A DNA stretch of 64,000 nt from Parcubacteria bacterium RAAC4_OD1_1 (GTDB lineage Bacteria > Patescibacteriota > Minisyncoccia > Phycocordibacterales > UBA9973), in assembly GCA_000505065.1 (NCBI GenBank), contig AWSN01000001.1:339647-403646 (forward strand), written 5' to 3'. Position numbers and translations under genes: made by a program. This document shows positions 10,138 to 61,292 of the stretch, one piece after another. Position 1 is the stretch's first letter. The number at the start of each line of letters is the position of its first letter. Below the pieces are notes generated by a model that had not been told where the DNA came from, ran no database searches, and worked only from the letters and a program-made list of their open reading frames with translations.

Positions 10138-10209
10138 GGATCTATAGTTCAGGGGCTAGAACACCAGATTTTAATTCTGGAAACATGAGTTCAACTCTCG
10201 TCAGATCTA
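10138..10209 (+). tRNA. tRNA-like gene with anticodon TTA (would read UAA; ochre-suppressor-like), possibly a pseudo-tRNA
   Basis: Cloverleaf: acceptor GGATCTA/CAGATCT (one A:C mismatch, one G:U); D-arm GTTC-AGGGGCTA-GAAC; anticodon stem CCAGA/TCTGG with loop TT-TTA-AT; 4-nt variable loop; T-arm ATGAG-TTCAACT-CTCGT. A terminator follows at 10313-10345. Confidence 0.5.
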
Positions 10210-10312
10210 CGGAAAGTTCTTTGTATATATAAACATATAAAAATGTGATTTTGGGAGAGGTCAACATTAAAGGGCATTCAACCGCTCGTTTGTTTATATT
10301 TGAAGAACTTAG

Positions 10313-45486: not shown

Positions 45487-45624
45487 AAATTAATTAAATT
45501 TTAAAAAATAATAAAACACTTCACTATGGACCTTTGTGTGCTAGCTTCAGTGCTAGAACAAGTGAAATGTGTCTTTATATTAACAAAAAAATAGCCTTTT
45601 GTCCAGACTAAAATCGAAACAAAC

Positions 45625-45715
45625 TTTTTCAAGAAAAAATGTCTGGCACCGGCCCCCCCTAAATCCGAGGACTTTTTTATTGATAAAGTTTGTGAAGATT
45701 TTTTATATTTTAAAA
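45625..45715 (+). repeat. repeat family 2, copy 1 (in rpsF 5' region)
   Basis: gaaaaaatgtctggcaccggccccccctaaatccgaggacttttttattgataaagtttgtgaagatttttt matches 59345-59435. Confidence 0.7.
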
Positions 45716-46566
45716 AGTTTTTTAGCATTTTCTAATATCTGAATAGCAACTTTTTCCTCATCCAATCTTTTTATCTCTGCAATCTTTTTTACTATATCTT
45801 TAACATAAACAGATTCATTTCTTTTCCCCCTATGTGGAACAGGGGCGACATAAGGGCTATCTGTGTCTGCCATAATCCTATCTAACGGTAATTCTTTTAT
45901 AATTTCTTCATAATTTATTTTTCTTGGATCATTTTTTTTTGGAGGATAAGTTATAACCCCAGCAAAAGAAACATAAAAACCAAAATCAATAAAATCTTTC
46001 GCGTCTTTTAGAGTCCCAGCAAAAAAATGTATCACACCTTTGACCTTAGAATATTTTTTCAATATTTCAAGTACATCCTGATAGGCACTTATATTTAAAT
46101 TCTCATCACTATTTCTTATGTGGAGCATTAGGGGTATTTCTAACTCATTAGCAAGCTCTATCTGGTCTATAAAAGCTTTCTTTTGTTTTTCTACACTATC
46201 GGGAGATAAATGATAATAATCAAGTCCACACTCACCTACTCCTACTACCTTCCCTATTTTAGTAAGCTCTCTGTATTTATTTTTATCAAAAATTTCACCA
46301 CGTGAAGTAAATTCTTTTTCTTCACTTCCGAGCTCACTTTCATCATGATATGAGGTGCTCGTATGTATAGGGTGAAGCCCAATAGTAGAATAAACCCCCT
46401 CTTTGTATTTATTCGTCATCTCTACAGCCTTTTTTGAAGTATCATATTGTGTGCCGATATTTATTACCCAAGTATCTCCCTCTAATGCACGAGAAATAAC
46501 AGCATCACGATCTTCATCAAATGCCACAAAATTAATATGTGCATGTATGTCTATATATTTAGGCAT
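45703..46566 (-). CDS. TatD family metal-dependent DNase/hydrolase
   Basis: IDIHAHINF..., GLHP, and further His/Asp metal ligands in TIM-barrel order. Confidence 0.8.
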   Translation of the reverse strand: MPKYIDIHAHINFVAFDEDRDAVISRALEGDTWVINIGTQYDTSKKAVEMTNKYKEGVYSTIGLHPIHTSTSYHDESELGSEEKEFTSRGEIFDKNKYRELTKIGKVVGVGECGLDYYHLSPDSVEKQKKAFIDQIELANELEIPLMLHIRNSDENLNISAYQDVLEILKKYSKVKGVIHFFAGTLKDAKDFIDFGFYVSFAGVITYPPKKNDPRKINYEEIIKELPLDRIMADTDSPYVAPVPHRGKRNESVYVKDIVKKIAEIKRLDEEKVAIQILENAKKLFKI

Positions 46567-55704: not shown

Positions 55705-58700
55705 TTATATTTTTATATCAATTTTTAATAGTATGTCTCCAATTTTTATTTCTTCTCCTTCATTTTCTTTTATAGAAACTTTGGCGCTTACAGCCTTTTC
55801 AAATTCTTTTTCAAATCTATTTATTATTTTCTGCCCTTCTACCCCTGTCTCTATCTCTAGATTTACCACATCATTTGGATTAAGTCCCATTTTCTTTCTC
55901 ATATCTTGGACCGCCCGTACCAACTCACGATAATTCCCCTCTTGTTTAAGTTCTGGGGTGATTTCTGTATCAAGCTGAATTGGTAAACTCATATCTATAG
56001 TAATAGTCTTAATTACTGAAGCAGAAATTTCATTCATAGAATGACCAAAATATATCTTTTTAACATTTACTTCTTCTTTAATAAGTTCTATAAATTGAAT
56101 ATCAGATTCATTTAATATTTTTGAATCATTTATTATCATTGAATTAAGTACTTGTCTTACGGGTCTTTGGTTTTTTTGTCTAGACTCCAAACCTAAAGAA
56201 ACCAATCTTCGAGTTTCCTCCATTTTTTGATTTAAATCATCTTTTAATTCTTGAATCTCTGGCCAGTTTGCAAGATGTACACTCTCTTCATCCATATCAT
56301 TTCTTAATTTCTGCCATATATCCTCACTCGCAAATGGAGCAAATGGGGCCATTAGTTTTGCTAAATTTTTTAAAACAAAATATAAAGTCTGCCTCGCCTC
56401 GCCATAGCCTTGTGCGGAGGCAGGTTGACTTGCTTCATCTTTTATTCTTTCTCTACTTCTCCTTAAATACCAAGTCGAAAGATCATCTATAAAATCTCTT
56501 ATAGATCTCACTGGCTCTAGGAGTTTATAATTTTCTAATCCTTCTGTTATATTTTTTGCAAGCTCAGCAAATCTTACCAAAATCCATTGATCAAGAACAT
56601 TAGCCTCCTCAAGGCCTTGCCTTGGACCCCCTAAAGGCAAGGCCTTTTCCCGGCTCTCTAATTCTTTATCTCTATAAAGCTCATAAAAAGCTAAAACATT
56701 GTAAAGTAAATTGAAAACTTTATTATGAAGTTCAGAGACAGTTTTTTCATCAAAGTTTTTTGATTCTCCTGGTTGATTCACCGAATACATCCACATACGG
56801 AGAGTGTCTGCACCATATTTATGTATCATCTCCCATGGGTCAACAATATTCCCAAGTGATTTACTCATCTTCTTTCCATTTGCATCTAATATATGACCAA
56901 GACAAATCACATTCTTATACGCTTTTCCTCGCCCCATTAAAACCCCCACAGCATGAAGTGTATAGAACCACCCACGAGTCTGATCTATTGCCTCTGAAAT
57001 AAAATCAGCTGGGTAATTTATCTCTCCATCAAACGGATAGTGATCTTGCGAGAATGGCATTGTGCCAGAGTCTAGCCAGACATCCATAACTTCTTTTGAT
57101 CTTTCTAATTTACCACTACATTCACATTGCAATTCTACTTCATCAATATAAGGCCTATGTAAATCAAGCTCATAGTTCTCATCATGAGGAATAGGATAAA
57201 AGGGTACTTCTCTCCATTCTGCATTCTTCAAATAATTATAATCCTTTATCATTTTTAAAGACTCTTCTCCATTAAGCCCCATAGATCCAGCGACAGCAAG
57301 CCAAGACGGCCCACCGTGAGTTACTATCAAAATATTTTTCCCAGAATATTTATCTTCCATTTCATAAAGGAAACTCATAATCCTTCTTTTCATATCATTG
57401 TATGATTCATTGCCATCTTCCCCATGATAAAATGTCTCCACTGTATTTGGGTAATCTTTATGATATTCTGTCCAAGTTCTACCTTCATACATAGGAAGAG
57501 ACATTTCGTGAAGCCTATCATCTACTATTACTTTTTCATCCTCTAATCCAATTACATCTTGCACAATCTCAGATGTTTCTCTTGCTCTAACAAAAGGAGA
57601 AGTAAAAATAAAATCAATATTTTTATCTTTCAAATTTTCTGCATTTTCTTTTACTTGATTCTTTCCATTTTCTGTTAAATGGTCTTCATTATTATATGAA
57701 GTGCTCACAAGATCAGTCAGATTATTGTCCGCCTCTCCGTGACGCATCACAAAATATTTATTCCCAGATTTCTTGGTTTTATTTTTTAAATCTTCTAGAC
57801 TTCTTATGACTTCAATTTTATTACACTTCTCGCATTTCCAGACCGGAAGTGGAGTACCCCAATAACGCTCCCGAGAAATTGCCCAATCTTTAATATCAGA
57901 AAGCCACTCACCAAATCGCCCTTCTTTTATATATGAAGGTTCCCAATTTATTCCTTTATTTTCTTCTACAAGCTTATCACGGAGGGCTGACATTTTGATA
58001 TACCAAGAATCTCGAGCATAGTATATGAGCGCAGTTTTACAACGCCAACAATGTGGGTATGAGTGCTCATATTTTTCTTTTTTAAATAATAATCCTCGAT
58101 GTGCCAAATCTTTGATTATTTCTACGGCAGTTTCTTCATCCCCGCCTGCAGTAGCTATGCTATCAGCATTGCGGGCAGGACGCACAAATCGCCCTTCAAG
58201 GAACCCAGTTCCCGGAAGGAATTTGCCATCAAGCCCTACAAGGTGATGCTTTGGAAGCCCAATCTCATTACCAAGCACAAAGTCATCTTGCCCATACATC
58301 ACTGCAGTGTGTACTACCCCTGTACCATCCTCTGTAGTCACAAAATCCGCAGGATAAACTTTAAAAGCTTTCTCAAGTTTATTTTTTTCACTATCAGAAA
58401 TAGTATCTTTTAAAAATGGATAAAGTGGTTCATATTCTAAACCAACTAAATCTGAGCCTTTAAATTCTTCTAGAATTTCATATTCACCTTCTATTGTGGA
58501 CAAGCGAGCCTTTGCAAGAATATAAATTTCATTTTCTTTTTTTATTTTTACATAATCAATATCCTTCCCCACAGCAAGTGCCACATTCCCTGGTAATGTC
58601 CAAGGTGTTGTCGTCCAAGCCAAAATATAAGTATTTTCTTGTCCTTTTATTTTAAACTTCGCATATACAGATAAATCTTTTACATCTTGGTACCCTTGAG

Positions 58701-59277
58701 CAAGCTCATGAGAAGAAAGCGTAGTTCCACATCTTGGACACCAAGGCACAACTTTATAATCTTTAAACAAAAGTCCTTGATCATTTACATTTTTTATAAT
58801 ATTCCAAACAGATTCTATGTAATCATTATGATAAGTCACATAAGCATTCTTCTGATCCACCCAGTATCCGATACGGTCTGTAAATTTCTCCCAGATGTCA
58901 GTATACTCCCAAACGGATTCTTTACATTCATGATTAAATTTTGAAATTCCATATTCTTCAATTGCCTTTTTGGAAGTAAGTCCTAATTTTTTCTCTACTT
59001 GAAGTTCTACTGGTAATCCATGAGTATCCCAGCCACCTTTCCTGCGGACATGGTAGCCTTTCATTGTTTTATATCTTGGTATTGCATCCTTGAAAGCTCT
59101 CGCCTCTAGGTGGTGTATCCCCGGCTTTCCATTGGCAGTCGGAGGGCCTTCATAGAAAACATACTCCCCTTTTGGCGCATCCTTCTCTAAACTTTTTTGA
59201 AATATATTATTTTCTTTCCAAAATTCTAAAATTTTTTCTTCATTCTGTGCCCTTTGTGATTTTATTTCTTCGTTCAT
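55705..59277 (-). CDS. ileS: isoleucyl-tRNA synthetase (type 2) with about 185-aa histidine-phosphatase (PGAM-like) domain inserted in the catalytic core
   Basis: HIGH (PPTANGKPGIHH), CP1 editing domain, KMSKS, anticodon-binding domain. Residues about 505-690 (YFVMRHGEADNN...ILIVTHGGPSW) lie between the WKCEKC zinc knuckle and LHRPYIDE. Confidence 0.9.
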   Translation of the reverse strand: MNEEIKSQRAQNEEKILEFWKENNIFQKSLEKDAPKGEYVFYEGPPTANGKPGIHHLEARAFKDAIPRYKTMKGYHVRRKGGWDTHGLPVELQVEKKLGLTSKKAIEEYGISKFNHECKESVWEYTDIWEKFTDRIGYWVDQKNAYVTYHNDYIESVWNIIKNVNDQGLLFKDYKVVPWCPRCGTTLSSHELAQGYQDVKDLSVYAKFKIKGQENTYILAWTTTPWTLPGNVALAVGKDIDYVKIKKENEIYILAKARLSTIEGEYEILEEFKGSDLVGLEYEPLYPFLKDTISDSEKNKLEKAFKVYPADFVTTEDGTGVVHTAVMYGQDDFVLGNEIGLPKHHLVGLDGKFLPGTGFLEGRFVRPARNADSIATAGGDEETAVEIIKDLAHRGLLFKKEKYEHSYPHCWRCKTALIYYARDSWYIKMSALRDKLVEENKGINWEPSYIKEGRFGEWLSDIKDWAISRERYWGTPLPVWKCEKCNKIEVIRSLEDLKNKTKKSGNKYFVMRHGEADNNLTDLVSTSYNNEDHLTENGKNQVKENAENLKDKNIDFIFTSPFVRARETSEIVQDVIGLEDEKVIVDDRLHEMSLPMYEGRTWTEYHKDYPNTVETFYHGEDGNESYNDMKRRIMSFLYEMEDKYSGKNILIVTHGGPSWLAVAGSMGLNGEESLKMIKDYNYLKNAEWREVPFYPIPHDENYELDLHRPYIDEVELQCECSGKLERSKEVMDVWLDSGTMPFSQDHYPFDGEINYPADFISEAIDQTRGWFYTLHAVGVLMGRGKAYKNVICLGHILDANGKKMSKSLGNIVDPWEMIHKYGADTLRMWMYSVNQPGESKNFDEKTVSELHNKVFNLLYNVLAFYELYRDKELESREKALPLGGPRQGLEEANVLDQWILVRFAELAKNITEGLENYKLLEPVRSIRDFIDDLSTWYLRRSRERIKDEASQPASAQGYGEARQTLYFVLKNLAKLMAPFAPFASEDIWQKLRNDMDEESVHLANWPEIQELKDDLNQKMEETRRLVSLGLESRQKNQRPVRQVLNSMIINDSKILNESDIQFIELIKEEVNVKKIYFGHSMNEISASVIKTITIDMSLPIQLDTEITPELKQEGNYRELVRAVQDMRKKMGLNPNDVVNLEIETGVEGQKIINRFEKEFEKAVSAKVSIKENEGEEIKIGDILLKIDIKI

Positions 59278-59344
59278 ATATTTTCTATTAAATTAATAAT
59301 TTAATAAATTAAAATTTTAATAAGTCTTTTTAACGAAGCAAATT

Positions 59345-59435
59345 ATTTTATGAAAAAATGTCTGGCACCGGTTCCCGTCCCCCTTGTCCGAGGACTTTTT
59401 TCAGAATATAATTTGCGAAGTTTTTATTTTTTAAA
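59345..59435 (+). repeat. repeat family 2, copy 2 (between T-box terminator and ileS start)
   Basis: tgaaaaaatgtctggcaccggttcccgtcccccttgtccgaggacttttttcagaatataatttgcgaagttttt. Confidence 0.7.
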
Positions 59436-59660
59436 TAAAAAACTCGTCCACATATAGCAATCCAATAGATTGTTATATAAGGACGAGTTTCTATCCTAAT
59501 TCGCAATGCGAACGGACAAGCCCGTGGTACCACCTTTTTTCTTCCGCAAAGCGGAACTCATTTATAGGGTTCTACCGACTCTTGAGGCCTTGCCTAAAGA
59601 GTTTTCTTCCCAGTGCTAGCCTTATAAATAAGGCAAAGGCTGATAACCTCGATCACACTC
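59428..59660 (-). promoter_or_regulatory. T-box riboswitch leader of ileS
   Basis: On minus strand: T-box sequence AAGGTGGTACCACGGG (59521-59536, consensus GGGTGGTACCGCGG), then terminator AAACTCGTCC-loop-GGACGAGTTT plus U-run (59428-59490); ATC in a candidate specifier region; about 200-nt structured leader. Confidence 0.7.
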
Positions 59661-59711
59661 TTAAATAATAACACTAATTTAATATATTGCAAACTTCTCA
59701 TAAAATTTTAA

Positions 59712-59735
59712 AACCCCTTAATTAAGGGGTTTTAA
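59712..59735. terminator. bidirectional hairpin terminator
   Basis: aaaaccccttaattaaggggtttt immediately after the stop of the small ORF. Confidence 0.55.
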
Positions 59736-59861
59736 AATTACTTTGATTTCTTTTTACTTTTTTTATTTTCTAGCATTACCTTCTTTATTGCCAATCTTTT
59801 CTTTGTCTTCTTTGAGTGTCTAGATTTTACATGCGGGTGTAATGATGTAGCTCTTTTTGCC
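59736..59861 (-). CDS. small basic protein (41 aa), possibly ribosomal-protein-like
   Basis: MAKRATSLHPHVKSRHSKKTKKRLAIKKVMLENKKSKKKSK; the stop abuts a hairpin terminator; not in the ORF track because shorter than 60 aa. Confidence 0.4.
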
Positions 59862-59957
59862 ATATATTTACTTGAGTGAACATTTAAATAAATGTTTTAA
59901 CTTAAATTAATTAATAAATCTACCTACTTATATAATATATTATTTTAAATAAATTAC

Positions 59958-61292
59958 CTAATTTATTATTTCTTCTATTTCGCTCCCCTTTTTATAAATT
60001 ACCAAATCTTTATCACCCAAATCTTCCCAATTCTTTTTTACTTGTCCGACTATCCTCCAAGTTTCTAAGACTTCTTTACCCGAAGTAAAAAATTTATGGT
60101 CTCCTAATATCGCGCTATATATCACCTGCTCATAAGCTTTTGGTAACGATTCATAATGATTCTTAAAATTAAATTCAAGTGTATGGCTTGCTACATCATG
60201 ATCATATCCTGGCTTTTTCGTAAGTAAAGAAAAAGATATTCCTTCATTTGGCTCAAGTCTGAAAAGTAATTCATTAGACTCATGATCACGAACTTTTTTA
60301 TATAAAATCCTTATCTCTGTATATTTCTCTTTTAAAGCTTTACCTGTCGAAAGCTTAATAGATACTCCCTTCCAATTCTTATCACTTGATGAAAGTGAGA
60401 TGGATGCAAAAGTTTCTACATTACTATTATCATTATTAACTTCTTCTTTATATCCCTCATATTGACCTCTAACAGATACAATTTTATTTTTATCTTTTAA
60501 AACTTTTACTTTCTTTAAAGCCTTAAACCTAAGTTCGCCGATATCAGAAATGCTATAATTTTTATCTAGATTTATAAGAGTAAGAGAAAGCAGTCCAAGT
60601 AAATGACTTTGGATAAGGTCACGAAGAGCTCCTGTCTGCTCATAAAAGTTTGCCCGCCCCTCAATACCAATACTTTCACTCACATTAATTTCAATACTAT
60701 TTATAAAATCTTTATTCCAAGTCTTTTTAAAGAGAGAGTTGCCTTCACGGAAAACAAGCAAATTTTGCACAGTTTCTTTCGCCAAATAATGATCTATGCG
60801 ATACACTTTATCCTCATCAAAATATTTATCTATATGAGAAAGCATTAAAGATGCCGAATCATAATCCACCCCAAAAGGCTTTTCTAAAAGTAATTTAGAA
60901 TTATCACTCGCAAGTCCTGACTTACCAATAAGTTCTATAATTTTTGAAGAAGCAAGAGGTGGAACAGAAAGATAAAATAAATATTGTGGATTATCTAAAT
61001 TATATTTTTCTCCAATTTCAAATAAAAACTTTTTTAAAGATAAATAATCTTTAATCTCATTTAAGTCCATTTCAAAAATGTCTATCTTGTCTTTAAGAAT
61101 CTTTTCATCCTCTTCATTCTTACACAATTTACCTTTATTAAAGTTACTTTGCCTAGTGACTCCGACTATCCTAAACTGATCTGGGAGTTTTTCATTTTTA
61201 GATATTTCAGCAAGTGCTGGTAAAAGCTTCCTGGTAGATAAATCCCCAGTTATACCTACTATTATCAATATTGTTGGTCTTAGATTATTCAT
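59958..61292 (-). CDS. zwf: glucose-6-phosphate 1-dehydrogenase
   Basis: NAD(P)-binding IVGITGDLSTRKLLPAL and active-site RIDHYLAKE. Confidence 0.9.
   Translation of the reverse strand: MNNLRPTILIIVGITGDLSTRKLLPALAEISKNEKLPDQFRIVGVTRQSNFNKGKLCKNEEDEKILKDKIDIFEMDLNEIKDYLSLKKFLFEIGEKYNLDNPQYLFYLSVPPLASSKIIELIGKSGLASDNSKLLLEKPFGVDYDSASLMLSHIDKYFDEDKVYRIDHYLAKETVQNLLVFREGNSLFKKTWNKDFINSIEINVSESIGIEGRANFYEQTGALRDLIQSHLLGLLSLTLINLDKNYSISDIGELRFKALKKVKVLKDKNKIVSVRGQYEGYKEEVNNDNSNVETFASISLSSSDKNWKGVSIKLSTGKALKEKYTEIRILYKKVRDHESNELLFRLEPNEGISFSLLTKKPGYDHDVASHTLEFNFKNHYESLPKAYEQVIYSAILGDHKFFTSGKEVLETWRIVGQVKKNWEDLGDKDLVIYKKGSEIEEIIN

What the first reader, a model, noticed from the sequence alone, without database searches (positions are those of the whole stretch)
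59428..59660. T-box riboswitch leader upstream of ileS
On the minus strand the ileS 5' region contains AAAAAAGGTGGTACCACGGG, a 12/13 match to the T-box antiterminator consensus (GGGTGGTACCGCG). It is followed by a mutually exclusive intrinsic terminator (AAACTCGTCC...GGACGAGTTT + UUUUAUUU) about 140 nt upstream of the start codon. Further upstream is about 150 nt of structured leader with ATC in a candidate specifier region. T-box regulation is classical in Firmicutes but sparsely documented in ultra-small or candidate-phylum genomes, so its presence here is phylogenetically informative. A family-2 repeat copy is lodged between the terminator and the ileS start.
Basis: partly seen in the sequence, partly recalled or inferred. 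Interest (0 to 1): 0.6.

Follow-up and report, generated by a model that had tools for sequence, protein, structure and literature searches.

The report
Reduced tRNA-Ile T-box leader of ileS
The leader of the isoleucyl-tRNA synthetase gene in this candidate-phyla (Patescibacteria) genome is a real but stripped-down T-box riboswitch: it reads tRNA-Ile with a tiny hairpin instead of the usual long arm, yet still appears to act through a transcription terminator, a combination that standard annotation models miss.

Summary
On the minus strand, 59659-59433, lie a T-box core (AAGGUGGUACCACG, 59536-59523), an antiterminator, and an overlapping 51-nt terminator hairpin plus U-run, about 160 nt upstream of the ileS ATG (59277). 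A palindromic repeat is inserted in between.

Rfam RF00230 scores only 34.7 bits (gathering score 93; whole-window E = 5e-4). The 3' half is canonical, but the decoding half is not a classical long Stem I.

Comparison with 17 Patescibacteria ileS leaders and about 120 metagenome loci shows a conserved reduced architecture:
- a short hairpin with an invariant AUC (Ile) + purine in its apical loop;
- a Stem II with an S-turn (GGGAAGAA...GUAGAACCC);
- an optional IIA/B pseudoknot and Stem III;
- always a strong hairpin followed by U4-7.

Covariation supports the terminator and the decoding helices. In related loci the same loop position carries GAC before aspS and GUC before valS.

The decoding module matches the "class III" type known from actinobacterial ileS T-boxes, which mostly act on translation. 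Here it is coupled to a terminator. The window copy also lacks the K-turn (it has a three-way junction instead) and the pseudoknot.

Verdict: a genuine T-box and a new variant of a known kind. It is moderately interesting. I found no report of T-boxes in CPR bacteria in the searchable library.

The parts
59665..59692 (-). Promoter-like site: -35 TTGCAA (59692-59687), 17-nt spacer with TG, -10 TATTAT (59670-59665). The inferred transcription start is near 59659.
   Evidence: Consensus scan. The same TTGCAA-N17-TATTAT/TATTCT sits at the same distance from Stem I in relatives L001, L002, L005, L006, L082, L134 and L178. The start site is inferred, not shown.
59612..59659 (-). Stem I domain, a three-way junction. 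Base helix: AGUGU (59659-59655) with GCACU (59616-59612). Specifier hairpin: GAGG (59650-59647), loop UUAUCAG (59646-59640), CCUU (59639-59636). Extra hairpin: GCCUU (59634-59630), AUUUAU, AAGGC (59623-59619).
   Evidence: Independent MFE fold, -13.7 kcal/mol. The same three-arm layout, with covarying arm sequences, occurs in L013, L020, L021, L082/L198, L178, L112 and L115.
59642..59644 (-). Specifier codon AUC (Ile), followed by A59641.
   Evidence: AUC is invariant in the hairpin loop in 18/18 genome-derived leaders while the flanking stems vary. The same loop position carries GAC before AspRS genes and GUC/GUA before ValRS genes in related loci.
59567..59611 (-). Stem II. Base: GGG (59611-59609) with CCC (59569-59567). 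S-turn strands: AAGAAA (59608-59603) and GUAGAA (59575-59570). Upper helix: ACUCUU with AAGAGU, capped by AGGC-AAG-GCCU.
   Evidence: Fold at -13.0 kcal/mol. GGGAAGAA...(G)UAGAACC is nearly invariant across the family, with a covarying upper helix. [quoted passage not shown]
59557..59566 (-). 10-nt linker UAUAAAUGAG. There is no room for a Stem IIA/B pseudoknot. It contains AAAUG, which fits the RRRxG purine string 5' of Stem III.
   Evidence: Read directly from the sequence. Relatives L011, L013, L020, L021, L023, L027 and L031 have a CGGG...CCCG pseudoknot-like insert here, while the window group does not. The RRRxG-Stem III-AA motif is described in PMC7583486.
59542..59556 (-). Stem III hairpin UUCCGC-UUU-GCGGAA.
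   Evidence: Aligned to Stem III of RF00230 with high posterior probability, and present in the folds.
59479..59536 (-). Antiterminator. Helix A1: AAGG (59536-59533) with CCUU (59482-59479). T-box bulge: UGGUACC (59532-59526). Helix A2: ACGGG (59525-59521) with CUCGU (59487-59483). An inserted hairpin (59516-59494) caps A2.
   Evidence: Rfam alignment. Constrained fold at -16.4 kcal/mol. 94.9% of cells are paired across 18 sequences, and the sequence is almost invariant.
59433..59490 (-). Intrinsic terminator: 51-nt hairpin (59490-59440) plus U-run UUUUUUAUUU ending at 59433.
   Evidence: -24.5 kcal/mol. Across 18 sequences there are 21 pairs, 11 with changes on both sides, 96.4% paired, and 0/500 shuffles reach the observed values. 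All 17 relatives have a hairpin of -21.5 to -29.9 kcal/mol followed by U4-7.
59328..59432 (-). Inserted palindromic repeat of about 105 nt. It is not part of the riboswitch proper and lies between the terminator and the ancestral short spacer before the ATG.
   Evidence: A second copy lies at 45608-45723, and nhmmer finds only these two in the window. It folds as a long hairpin on either strand, with compensatory changes between the copies. Relatives without an insert have the ATG 13-41 nt after the terminator stem.
55705..59277 (-). ileS coding sequence (1190 aa), the regulated gene.
   Evidence: Pfam tRNA-synt_1 at 2.6e-117, plus Anticodon_1 and DUF5915. It is 80-86% identical to Paceibacteria/Nomurabacteria IleRS.

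Best explanation
The leader is a tRNA-Ile-sensing T-box riboswitch that controls ileS by transcription attenuation. Transcription starts near 59659.

Decoding. The nascent RNA folds into a reduced decoding module: a short Stem I that presents AUC-A in an apical loop, and a Stem II whose S-turn is expected to clamp the codon-anticodon duplex. This is the arrangement of 'class III' ileS T-boxes, except that the window copy has a three-way junction where a K-turn would be and has no IIA/B pseudoknot.

Sensing and switching. If the bound tRNA-Ile is uncharged, its 3' ACCA pairs with UGGU in the T-box bulge. [quoted passage not shown] If the tRNA is charged or absent, the more stable terminator (59490-59440 plus the U-run) forms and transcription stops.

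Shown: the sequence elements, the mutually exclusive alternative structures, the conservation and covariation across relatives, and the match between specifier and downstream gene. Inferred: tRNA binding, the transcription start, actual termination, and the role of the S-turn.
For: - T-box core and discriminator: the core is unique in the window. RF00230 aligns Stem III, the T-box bulge and the antiterminator with high posterior probability, and it is the only T-box-like hit in the window.
- Alternative structures: the terminator is -24.5 kcal/mol and the antiterminator -16.4 kcal/mol, and they share the strand CUCGUCC.
- Conservation: 17 Patescibacteria ileS loci have the same leader.
- Terminator covariation: 11/21 pairs change on both sides, 96.4% paired, 0/500 shuffles.
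- Decoding-module covariation: 11/14 pairs change on both sides, 93.1% paired, 0/500 shuffles.
- Specifier: AUC is invariant in the loop in 18/18 leaders. In related loci the same loop position carries GAC before AspRS and GUC/GUA before ValRS.
- Expression platform: every relative has a hairpin plus U4-7. The start codon is 13-321 nt beyond the stem, and the hairpin holds no SD at a working distance.
- Independent transcription unit: the upstream gene has its own terminator, and a conserved promoter-like site precedes the leader.
- Match to the known class: the architecture fits class III as defined in PMC10482949, and the S-turn residues fit PMC7583486.
Against: - RF00230 reaches only 34.7 bits against a gathering score of 93.
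- The window copy scores only 19.3 bits (E = 0.14) with my decoding-module model, because its Stem I is the three-way-junction variant.
- It lacks the K-turn consensus and the IIA/B pseudoknot. In N. farcinica, deleting the pseudoknot costs about 1000-fold in tRNA binding (PMC7583486, PMC10482949).
- The literature holds that transcriptional T-boxes generally need the long Stem I platform for fast tRNA capture (PMC7583486 section 6.2).
- The G.U wobble at the base of helix A2 is A-U here.
- No tRNA-Ile gene is available to check the anticodon and the discriminator base.
- A 105-nt palindromic insert lies between the terminator and the ATG, and its effect on expression is unknown.
- The decoding alignment used for the pair counts was fitted to the model.
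Confidence: 0.8

Rival explanations
1. It is a translational T-box like the actinobacterial class III ileS leaders: the 3' hairpin sequesters the ribosome-binding site instead of terminating transcription.
For: The decoding module is of the class III type, which mostly regulates translation (PMC10482949). The 3' arm GGACGAG corresponds in position to the SD-bearing strand of the high-GC and GC 0.47 relatives, for example GGAGGA 7 nt before the AUG in L090 and GAGGA in L105.
Against: In the window the hairpin ends 163 nt before the ATG. In all 17 relatives it is followed directly by U4-7, and the start codon is 13-321 nt away. The 25 nt before each start are AT-rich and lie outside the hairpin.
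Confidence: 0.05
2. It is an intact-looking T-box that has been functionally uncoupled in this genome. The palindromic repeat inserted after the terminator supplies a promoter, or an extra terminator, so ileS expression no longer depends on the riboswitch.
For: The insert of about 105 nt is absent from relatives that have the basal arrangement. Weak promoter-like matches occur at 59434-59405 and 59287-59259 on the minus strand. The element has an A6...U6-flanked hairpin.
Against: All T-box elements, the promoter and the terminator are intact and conserved. The promoter-like matches score 9/12 in very AT-rich DNA, where such matches are frequent (13 found against 5.4 expected in the region). 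Similar inserts coexist with conserved T-boxes in L014, L009, L001, L004 and L005, which suggests they are tolerated.
Confidence: 0.1
3. It is a classical (class I, Firmicutes-type) T-box whose long Stem I is simply too diverged for Rfam.
For: The 3' half aligns well to RF00230. The closest non-Patescibacteria IleRS genes, from Clostridia, carry canonical T-boxes scoring 105-148 bits.
Against: Only about 48 nt lie between the start of the leader and Stem II. They fold into a 4-bp specifier hairpin plus a 5-bp hairpin, with no AG bulge or distal loop that could form the elbow-binding platform. Rfam could place its Stem I only on the upstream gene's terminator, with low posterior probability. 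All 13 relatives that RF00230 detected score 31-52 bits.
Confidence: 0.03
4. It is a chance resemblance with no riboswitch.
For: It lies below the Rfam gathering score.
Against: The core is expected 0.03 times by chance. The whole leader is conserved, with covariation, in dozens of loci upstream of the same gene.
Confidence: 0.01

Closest known systems
Class III T-box riboswitches (Nocardia farcinica / Mycobacterium tuberculosis ileS; 'ultrashort Stem I' of Sherwood et al. 2015, as summarised in PMC10482949 and PMC7583486)
   Same: - It regulates ileS with an AUC specifier followed by a purine.
- The specifier sits in the apical loop of a short Stem I that has no elbow-binding double-T-loop platform.
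- Stem II has the GAA/GUAGA S-turn next to it.
- The discriminator is canonical: Stem III with a 5' RRRxG string, a UGGUACC bulge, and helices A1 and A2.
- An insertion caps helix A2, a feature the review notes for translational T-boxes.
- My decoding-module model, built only from Patescibacteria seeds, matches high-GC leaders full length at 30-44 bits.
   Different: - The expression platform is an intrinsic terminator (hairpin plus U-run, far from the ATG), not an SD sequestrator.
- The window copy has no IIA/B pseudoknot and no K-turn consensus (a three-way junction takes its place).
- The loop is 7 nt, not 5-6 nt.
- The base pair of helix A2 next to the bulge is A-U, not G.U.
- The host is a low-GC Patescibacteria genome, not Actinobacteria.
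Class I T-box leaders (Rfam RF00230; B. subtilis tyrS type)
   Same: [quoted passage not shown]
   Different: It has no long Stem I, no AG bulge or distal-loop platform, and the specifier is not in an internal loop. It scores 34.7 bits against a gathering score of 93.
Class IV T-boxes (Actinomyces odontolyticus ileS; intermediate Stem I, specifier in a side bulge)
   Same: Some relatives (L009, L024, L025, L026) carry the specifier in a bulge at the junction of two Stem I helices.
   Different: The window copy has the specifier in an apical loop, and its extra hairpin lies 3' of the specifier hairpin, not above it.

Membership tests
T-box riboswitch (general) | Conserved T-box sequence (AGGGUGGNACCGCG) forming a 7-nt bulge between helices A1 and A2 of an antiterminator. 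| tested here: met
   AAGGUGGUACCACG at 59536-59523 matches 12/14. The A1/A2 pairing appears in the Rfam alignment and in the constrained fold.
T-box riboswitch (general) | Mutually exclusive, more stable terminator (or sequestrator) that shares a strand with the antiterminator. | tested here: met
   The terminator is -24.5 kcal/mol and the antiterminator -16.4 kcal/mol, sharing CUCGUCC. The terminator covaries.
T-box riboswitch (general) | Specifier codon matching the amino acid of the regulated gene, followed by a purine. | tested here: met
   AUC-A at 59644-59641 lies upstream of ileS and is invariant in 18/18 relatives. GAC pairs with AspRS and GUC with ValRS at the same loop position elsewhere.
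T-box riboswitch (general) | UGGN of the bulge complementary to the NCCA end of the cognate tRNA, and specifier complementary to its anticodon. | not testable with these tools
   The bulge reads UGGU, which would pair with ACCA. No tRNA-Ile gene is in the window or in any held locus. That bacterial tRNA-Ile carries A73 and a GAU anticodon rests on general knowledge only.
Rfam RF00230 T-box leader | Score at or above the curated gathering score (93 bits). | tested here: not met
   34.7 bits. The 13 relatives that RF00230 detected score 31-52 bits.
Class I T-box | [quoted passage not shown] | tested here: not met
   The Stem I domain is 48 nt: a 5-bp base helix, a 4-bp specifier hairpin and a 5-bp hairpin. 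Rfam's Stem I alignment is spurious.
Class III T-box | Short Stem I without the platform, with the specifier in a 5-6-nt apical loop. | tested here: met
   The loop is UUAUCAG (7 nt) on a 4-bp stem. Relatives have 5-7-nt loops.
Class III T-box | Stem II bearing an S-turn, which is required for tRNA binding. | tested here: inconclusive
   The motif is present and conserved (GGGAAGAA...GUAGAACCC) and matches published residues. Whether it is required for binding cannot be tested here.
Class III T-box | K-turn joining Stem I to Stem II. | tested here: not met
   The window has GAUC on the 5' strand and UA on the 3' strand where relatives have NNN-GA and GA. Most relatives (L001, L002, L004-L006, L011, L014, L026) show the consensus: C-stem, 3-nt bulge, then tandem G.A/A.G. 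In the window a three-way junction replaces it.
Class III T-box | Stem IIA/B pseudoknot after Stem II. | tested here: not met
   Only 10 nt (59566-59557) separate Stem II from Stem III. A pseudoknot-like insert is present in 7 of 18 family members.
Class III T-box | Translational control by SD sequestration (typical, not absolute: 'mostly', PMC10482949). | tested here: not met
   The platform is a hairpin plus U-run with the ATG 163 nt downstream, and the same holds in all 17 relatives.
T-box discriminator | Stem III flanked by the purine string 5'-RRRxG ... AA-3'. | tested here: met
   AAAUG-AG-[UUCCGC UUU GCGGAA]-GAAAAA. Half of the relatives lack the Stem III hairpin but keep AAAUGAG.
T-box discriminator | G.U wobble pair at the base of helix A2, next to the bulge. 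| tested here: not met
   It is A59525-U59483. Across the 18 sequences the pair is A-U in 17 and G-C in 1.

The most novel reading that the evidence does not exclude
The window carries one member of an uncatalogued lineage of minimal, terminator-coupled T-boxes that is widespread in Patescibacteria and in other low-GC uncultured bacteria. These T-boxes have a class III-like decoding module without an elbow-binding platform. They often also lack the IIA/B pseudoknot, the K-turn or Stem III, and they are as short as about 157 nt. They control ileS and, in related organisms, valS and aspS. If they function as transcriptional switches, they contradict the view that co-transcriptional T-boxes need the long Stem I platform for fast tRNA capture, and that the pseudoknot and Stem III are indispensable. 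They also link sequestrator-type and terminator-type platforms in one evolutionary series.
Probability: 0.45. Interest if true: 0.7.

Novelty: new variant of a known kind. Interest (0 to 1): 0.52.

Why it matters
- Distribution. T-boxes are textbook regulators of Firmicutes and Actinobacteria. This places one in the candidate phyla radiation, where cis-regulatory RNAs are poorly charted and where the Rfam model would not annotate it: every detected family member scores 31-52 bits against a cut-off of 93.
- Mechanism. The family is a natural experiment. A decoding module thought to suit slow, reversible translational control is joined to a one-shot transcription terminator. Parts that mutagenesis in model T-boxes marked as essential (the pseudoknot, the K-turn, Stem III, the A2 G.U wobble) are naturally missing or replaced.
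- Uses. This offers compact templates for studying the minimal requirements of tRNA sensing and for engineering. It also gives a marker for tracing transfer of ileS with its leader between Actinobacteria, Chloroflexi, Clostridia and Patescibacteria.

Tried and rejected
- Rfam at the gathering score on the whole window found no T-box. Only the permissive search found it.
- A single MAFFT alignment of whole leaders (A2) scrambled the Stem II/pseudoknot region and put the window, L011 and L023 out of register in Stem I. I used it only for the discriminator and terminator, and I built a covariance model for the decoding module.
- That model (R1) recognises the window copy only weakly (19.3 bits, E = 0.14) and mis-places its Stem I. 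Support for the window's three-way junction therefore rests on independent folds and on by-eye comparison with L013, L020, L021, L082, L178, L112 and L115, not on a formal pair count.
- Looked for a tRNA-Ile gene in the window and in 46 loci and found none.
- Tried to read Sherwood et al. 2015 (PMC4313828); it is not held. Looked for a published Mtb ileS T-box sequence in PMC11297988; none is in the main text.
- Considered that the palindromic insert is a known RNA. Only chance-level Rfam hits cover it.
- Considered the 61-aa GTG ORF at 59348-59533 as a gene. It has no Pfam hit and overlaps the T-box core and terminator, so I treated it as spurious.
- Considered SD sequestration and rejected it on distances and U-runs.

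Full report
**What is there.** On the minus strand, the ileS ORF (55705-59277, 1190 aa; Pfam tRNA-synt_1 at 2.6e-117) is preceded by a 460-nt non-coding stretch. A 41-codon ORF ends at 59738 and has its own terminator hairpin (59739-59704). A promoter-like site follows: TTGCAA, 17 nt including TG, then TATTAT (59692-59665).

- AAAAAAGGTGGTACCACGGG lies at 59540-59521.
- The terminator arms AAACTCGTCC and GGACGAGTTT lie at 59490-59481 and 59449-59440, with the U-run ending at 59433.
- ATC triplets occur upstream.
- A repeat copy lies before the start codon.

GGTGGTACCNCG occurs once in the 64 kb, against 0.03 expected by chance. Three small corrections apply. The core matches the quoted 13-mer at 11/13. 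The terminator ends about 156-163 nt before the ATG. The structured part upstream of the core is about 120 nt.

**Rfam.** At gathering thresholds the window has no T-box. With permissive filters, RF00230 hits 59476-59763(-) at 34.7 bits (gathering score 93), with E = 6e-6 for the leader alone and 5e-4 for the whole window. It is the only T-box-like hit. The alignment explains the low score. Stem III (59556-59542), the T-box bulge and the antiterminator align with high posterior probability. The model's long Stem I, however, is forced onto the upstream gene's terminator, and 94 nt are left as an insertion.

**Alternative structures.** The terminator hairpin is -24.5 kcal/mol. The antiterminator is -16.4 kcal/mol and consists of A1 (AAGG/CCUU), the bulge UGGUACC, A2 (ACGGG/CUCGU) and an inserted capping hairpin. 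The two share the strand CUCGUCC, so they exclude each other. These energies are in the range TBDB reports for transcriptional T-boxes.

**Whose genome.** The IleRS N-terminus finds its best matches (68-86% identity) in MAGs labelled Paceibacteria, Nomurabacteria, Minisyncoccia or Patescibacteria. The next tier, at about 60%, is Clostridia, Chloroflexi and Actinomycetota. The window is therefore from a CPR/Patescibacteria genome.

**Comparative evidence.** Seventeen of about 30 Patescibacteria ileS loci carry AGGTGGTACC(A/G)CG upstream of ileS. Split at conserved anchors, they show one architecture:
- a base helix;
- a short hairpin whose loop ends in AUC plus a purine (AUC in 18/18, counting the window), with freely varying stems (GAGG/CCUC, GGAG/CUCC, AGGG/CCCU, GAAG/CUUC, AGACA/UGUCU and others);
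- GGGAAGAA, a variable hairpin, then (G)UAGAACC(C);
- an optional CGGG...CCCG pseudoknot-like insert (7/18);
- an optional Stem III;
- the T-box core;
- a terminator.

Independent MFE folds of each Stem I and Stem II domain recover this layout in nearly all sequences.

Pair counts support the helices:
- Terminator: 21 pairs, 11 with changes on both sides, 96.4% paired, 0/500 shuffles, and slid controls at 38-51% paired.
- Antiterminator: 94.9% paired but almost invariant, as expected for the T-box core.
- Decoding module: I built a covariance model from ten simple members (R1). It recovers the non-seed members L009 and L026. On the resulting 12-sequence alignment there are 14 pairs, 11 with changes on both sides, 93.1% paired and 0/500 shuffles. 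The caveat is that this alignment was fitted to the model.

**The window's own variant.** R1 scores the window only 19.3 bits, because its Stem I is a three-way junction:
- base helix AGUGU/GCACU (59659-59655 with 59616-59612);
- specifier hairpin GAGG-UUAUCAG-CCUU (59650-59636; AUC at 59644-59642);
- a second hairpin GCCUU-AUUUAU-AAGGC (59634-59619).

The K-turn consensus, which is clear in most relatives (for example AUGC-AGU-GA-A... paired with ...A-GA-GCAU), is absent here. The same three-arm layout recurs in L013, L020 and L021. It also recurs in the window's closest relatives from the metagenome scan (L082/L198, IleRS 87% and 78% identical; L178, 85%; also L112 and L115). In each, the extra arm has a different sequence but still pairs (GCCCC/GGGGC, GCCC/GGGC, GCCUGCC/GGCAGGC). 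Between Stem II and Stem III the window has only UAUAAAUGAG, so there is no IIA/B pseudoknot.

**What kind of T-box.** PMC10482949 defines four classes. Class III (N. farcinica ileS) has a short Stem I without the elbow-binding platform, the specifier in a 5-6-nt apical loop, and a requirement for Stem II. [quoted passage not shown] Classes III and IV 'mostly regulate translation initiation'.

PMC7583486 describes the Stem II S-turn residues G37-A38-A39 and G67-U68-A69-G70-A71. These correspond to the conserved GAA and GUAGA here. [quoted passage not shown]

The Patescibacteria family therefore has a class III decoding module, with some members class IV-like. Its expression platform, however, is a terminator. 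All 17 relatives have a hairpin of -21.5 to -29.9 kcal/mol followed directly by U4-7. The start codon lies 13-321 nt beyond the stem, and the hairpin holds no SD at a working distance.

The GC 0.47 and high-GC leaders from the metagenome scan differ on this point. They keep GGAGG or GAGGA in the 3' strand of the hairpin, 7 nt before the AUG. R1, built only from Patescibacteria seeds, matches these leaders over its full length at 26-44 bits. The ascertainment is biased, though, because the scan pattern already fixed GGAAGAA and TAGAACC.

**Independent validation of the specifier.** Several metagenome loci have the same architecture with other codons at the same loop position:
- CUGACA and UAUGACG (GAC) lie upstream of aspartate-tRNA ligases (L187, L085, L107).
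- ..GUCA and GUA lie upstream of valine-tRNA ligases (L150, L169, L088).
- AUC lies upstream of another IleRS (L166).

The codon tracks the gene, which is the hallmark of T-box specifiers.

**Distribution and annotation.** All 13 relatives that RF00230 detected score 31-52 bits, below the gathering score. Clostridia ileS leaders score 105-148 bits. The element is patchy among close relatives: L004 has it, while L007, L008, L012 and L068, which have the same upstream gene, have a 40-60-nt spacer instead. Full-text searches for T-box together with Patescibacteria, candidate phyla radiation, Parcubacteria or Saccharibacteria returned nothing. The library does not hold most subscription papers, so this is absence of evidence only.

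**The repeat.** In the basal arrangement the ATG follows the terminator stem by 13-41 nt. The window retains that ancestral spacer (...aattattaatttaatagaaaatatATG) but has about 105 nt inserted after the U-run. This segment has one other copy in the window (45608-45723; nhmmer finds only these two). It folds as a long imperfect palindrome on either strand, at -23 to -27 kcal/mol. Its outer stem shows compensatory differences between the copies (GCAAAUUAU/AUAAUUUGC against ACAAACUUU/AAAGUUUGU). Related elements sit at the same place in L014 (two copies in opposite orientations) and L009. A different insert sits there in L001, L004 and L005. I read it as a small MITE/REP-like palindromic element that lands in this spacer. 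It is not part of the switch, and its effect on ileS expression is unknown.

**Mechanism and confidence.** The best explanation is transcription attenuation by a tRNA-Ile-sensing T-box with a reduced decoding module (confidence 0.8). The sequence elements, the alternative structures, the conservation and covariation, and the specifier-gene correspondence are shown. tRNA binding, termination and the transcription start are inferred. The main doubts are these:
- whether a module without platform, K-turn and pseudoknot captures tRNA fast enough for a co-transcriptional decision;
- whether the insert uncouples regulation in this particular genome.

No tRNA-Ile gene was available for the anticodon and discriminator check.

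**Verdict.** The finding is real and its interpretation is supported. It is a new variant of a known kind: a class III-like T-box coupled to a terminator, in Patescibacteria, invisible to RF00230 at curated thresholds. Interest is moderate, at 0.52.

Noticed in passing
window 10138-10210 (+): A tRNA gene (Rfam tRNA, 58.4 bits) has a clean 7-nt anticodon loop UU-UUA-AU. Its anticodon UUA would read the UAA stop codon, and ARAGORN calls it tRNA-Stop. Genes in the window, including ileS, still appear to end normally under table 11, so this looks like a suppressor-type tRNA and not wholesale recoding.
   Followed up: partly
window 57250-57753 (-), IleRS aa 509-676: A histidine-phosphatase-superfamily domain (Pfam His_Phos_1, E = 1.7e-33) is inserted inside the IleRS catalytic core. 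By tblastn, the insert of about 180 aa is present at the same site in essentially all Paceibacteria-type IleRS loci held. It is absent (3-26 aa at that site) from the Clostridia, Chloroflexi, Actinobacteria and L031 enzymes.
   Followed up: partly
window 45608-45723 (-) and 59328-59441 (-): Two copies of a palindromic repeat of about 105-115 nt share the core AAAAAAGTCCTCGGA...CCGGTGCCAGACATTTTTTC, and the outer stem shows compensatory changes between the copies. Both lie in intergenic spacers between co-directional genes. Related copies occur in L014 (two, in opposite orientations) and L009.
   Followed up: partly
L002, L004, L006, L014, L081, L114 (leaders upstream of ileS): Many relatives have neither a IIA/B pseudoknot nor a Stem III hairpin (...GUAGAACCCUAUAAAUGAGAAGUAAACGAGGUGGUACC...). 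This gives complete T-box leaders of only about 157-170 nt. In other members, Stem III is present at exactly the GAAGU|AAAA junction. The literature calls Stem III indispensable.
   Followed up: partly
L187, L085, L107, L186, L150, L111, L169, L088, L141 (metagenome loci): The same reduced architecture with a terminator carries non-Ile specifiers: GAC before AspRS, GUC/GUA before ValRS, and AAC (L141) before a 202-aa protein with no NCBIfam hit. In the papers I could read, short-Stem-I T-boxes are described only for ileS. I did not determine the taxonomic origin of these contigs.
   Followed up: partly
L090, L097, L110 and about 50 similar loci (GC about 0.47, lake metagenomes): These class III-like ileS leaders have a 3' hairpin that contains GGAGG(A), followed by U5-7 and then the AUG directly. 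The platform looks both like an SD sequestrator and like an intrinsic terminator, so it may be an intermediate between the two modes.
   Followed up: no
window 59738-59863 (-): A 41-codon, very basic ORF (MAKRATSLHPHVKSRHSKKTKKRLAIKKVMLENKKSKKKSK) lies between zwf (G6PD, 59958-61292) and the ileS leader. It has its own strong terminator hairpin (59739-59704) and no Pfam hit.
   Followed up: no
L007, L008, L012, L068 versus L001, L002, L004, L006: The ileS T-box is present or absent among close relatives (IleRS about 80% identical) that share the same upstream gene. The loci without it have only a 40-60-nt spacer, which implies recent gain or loss of the whole leader.
   Followed up: no
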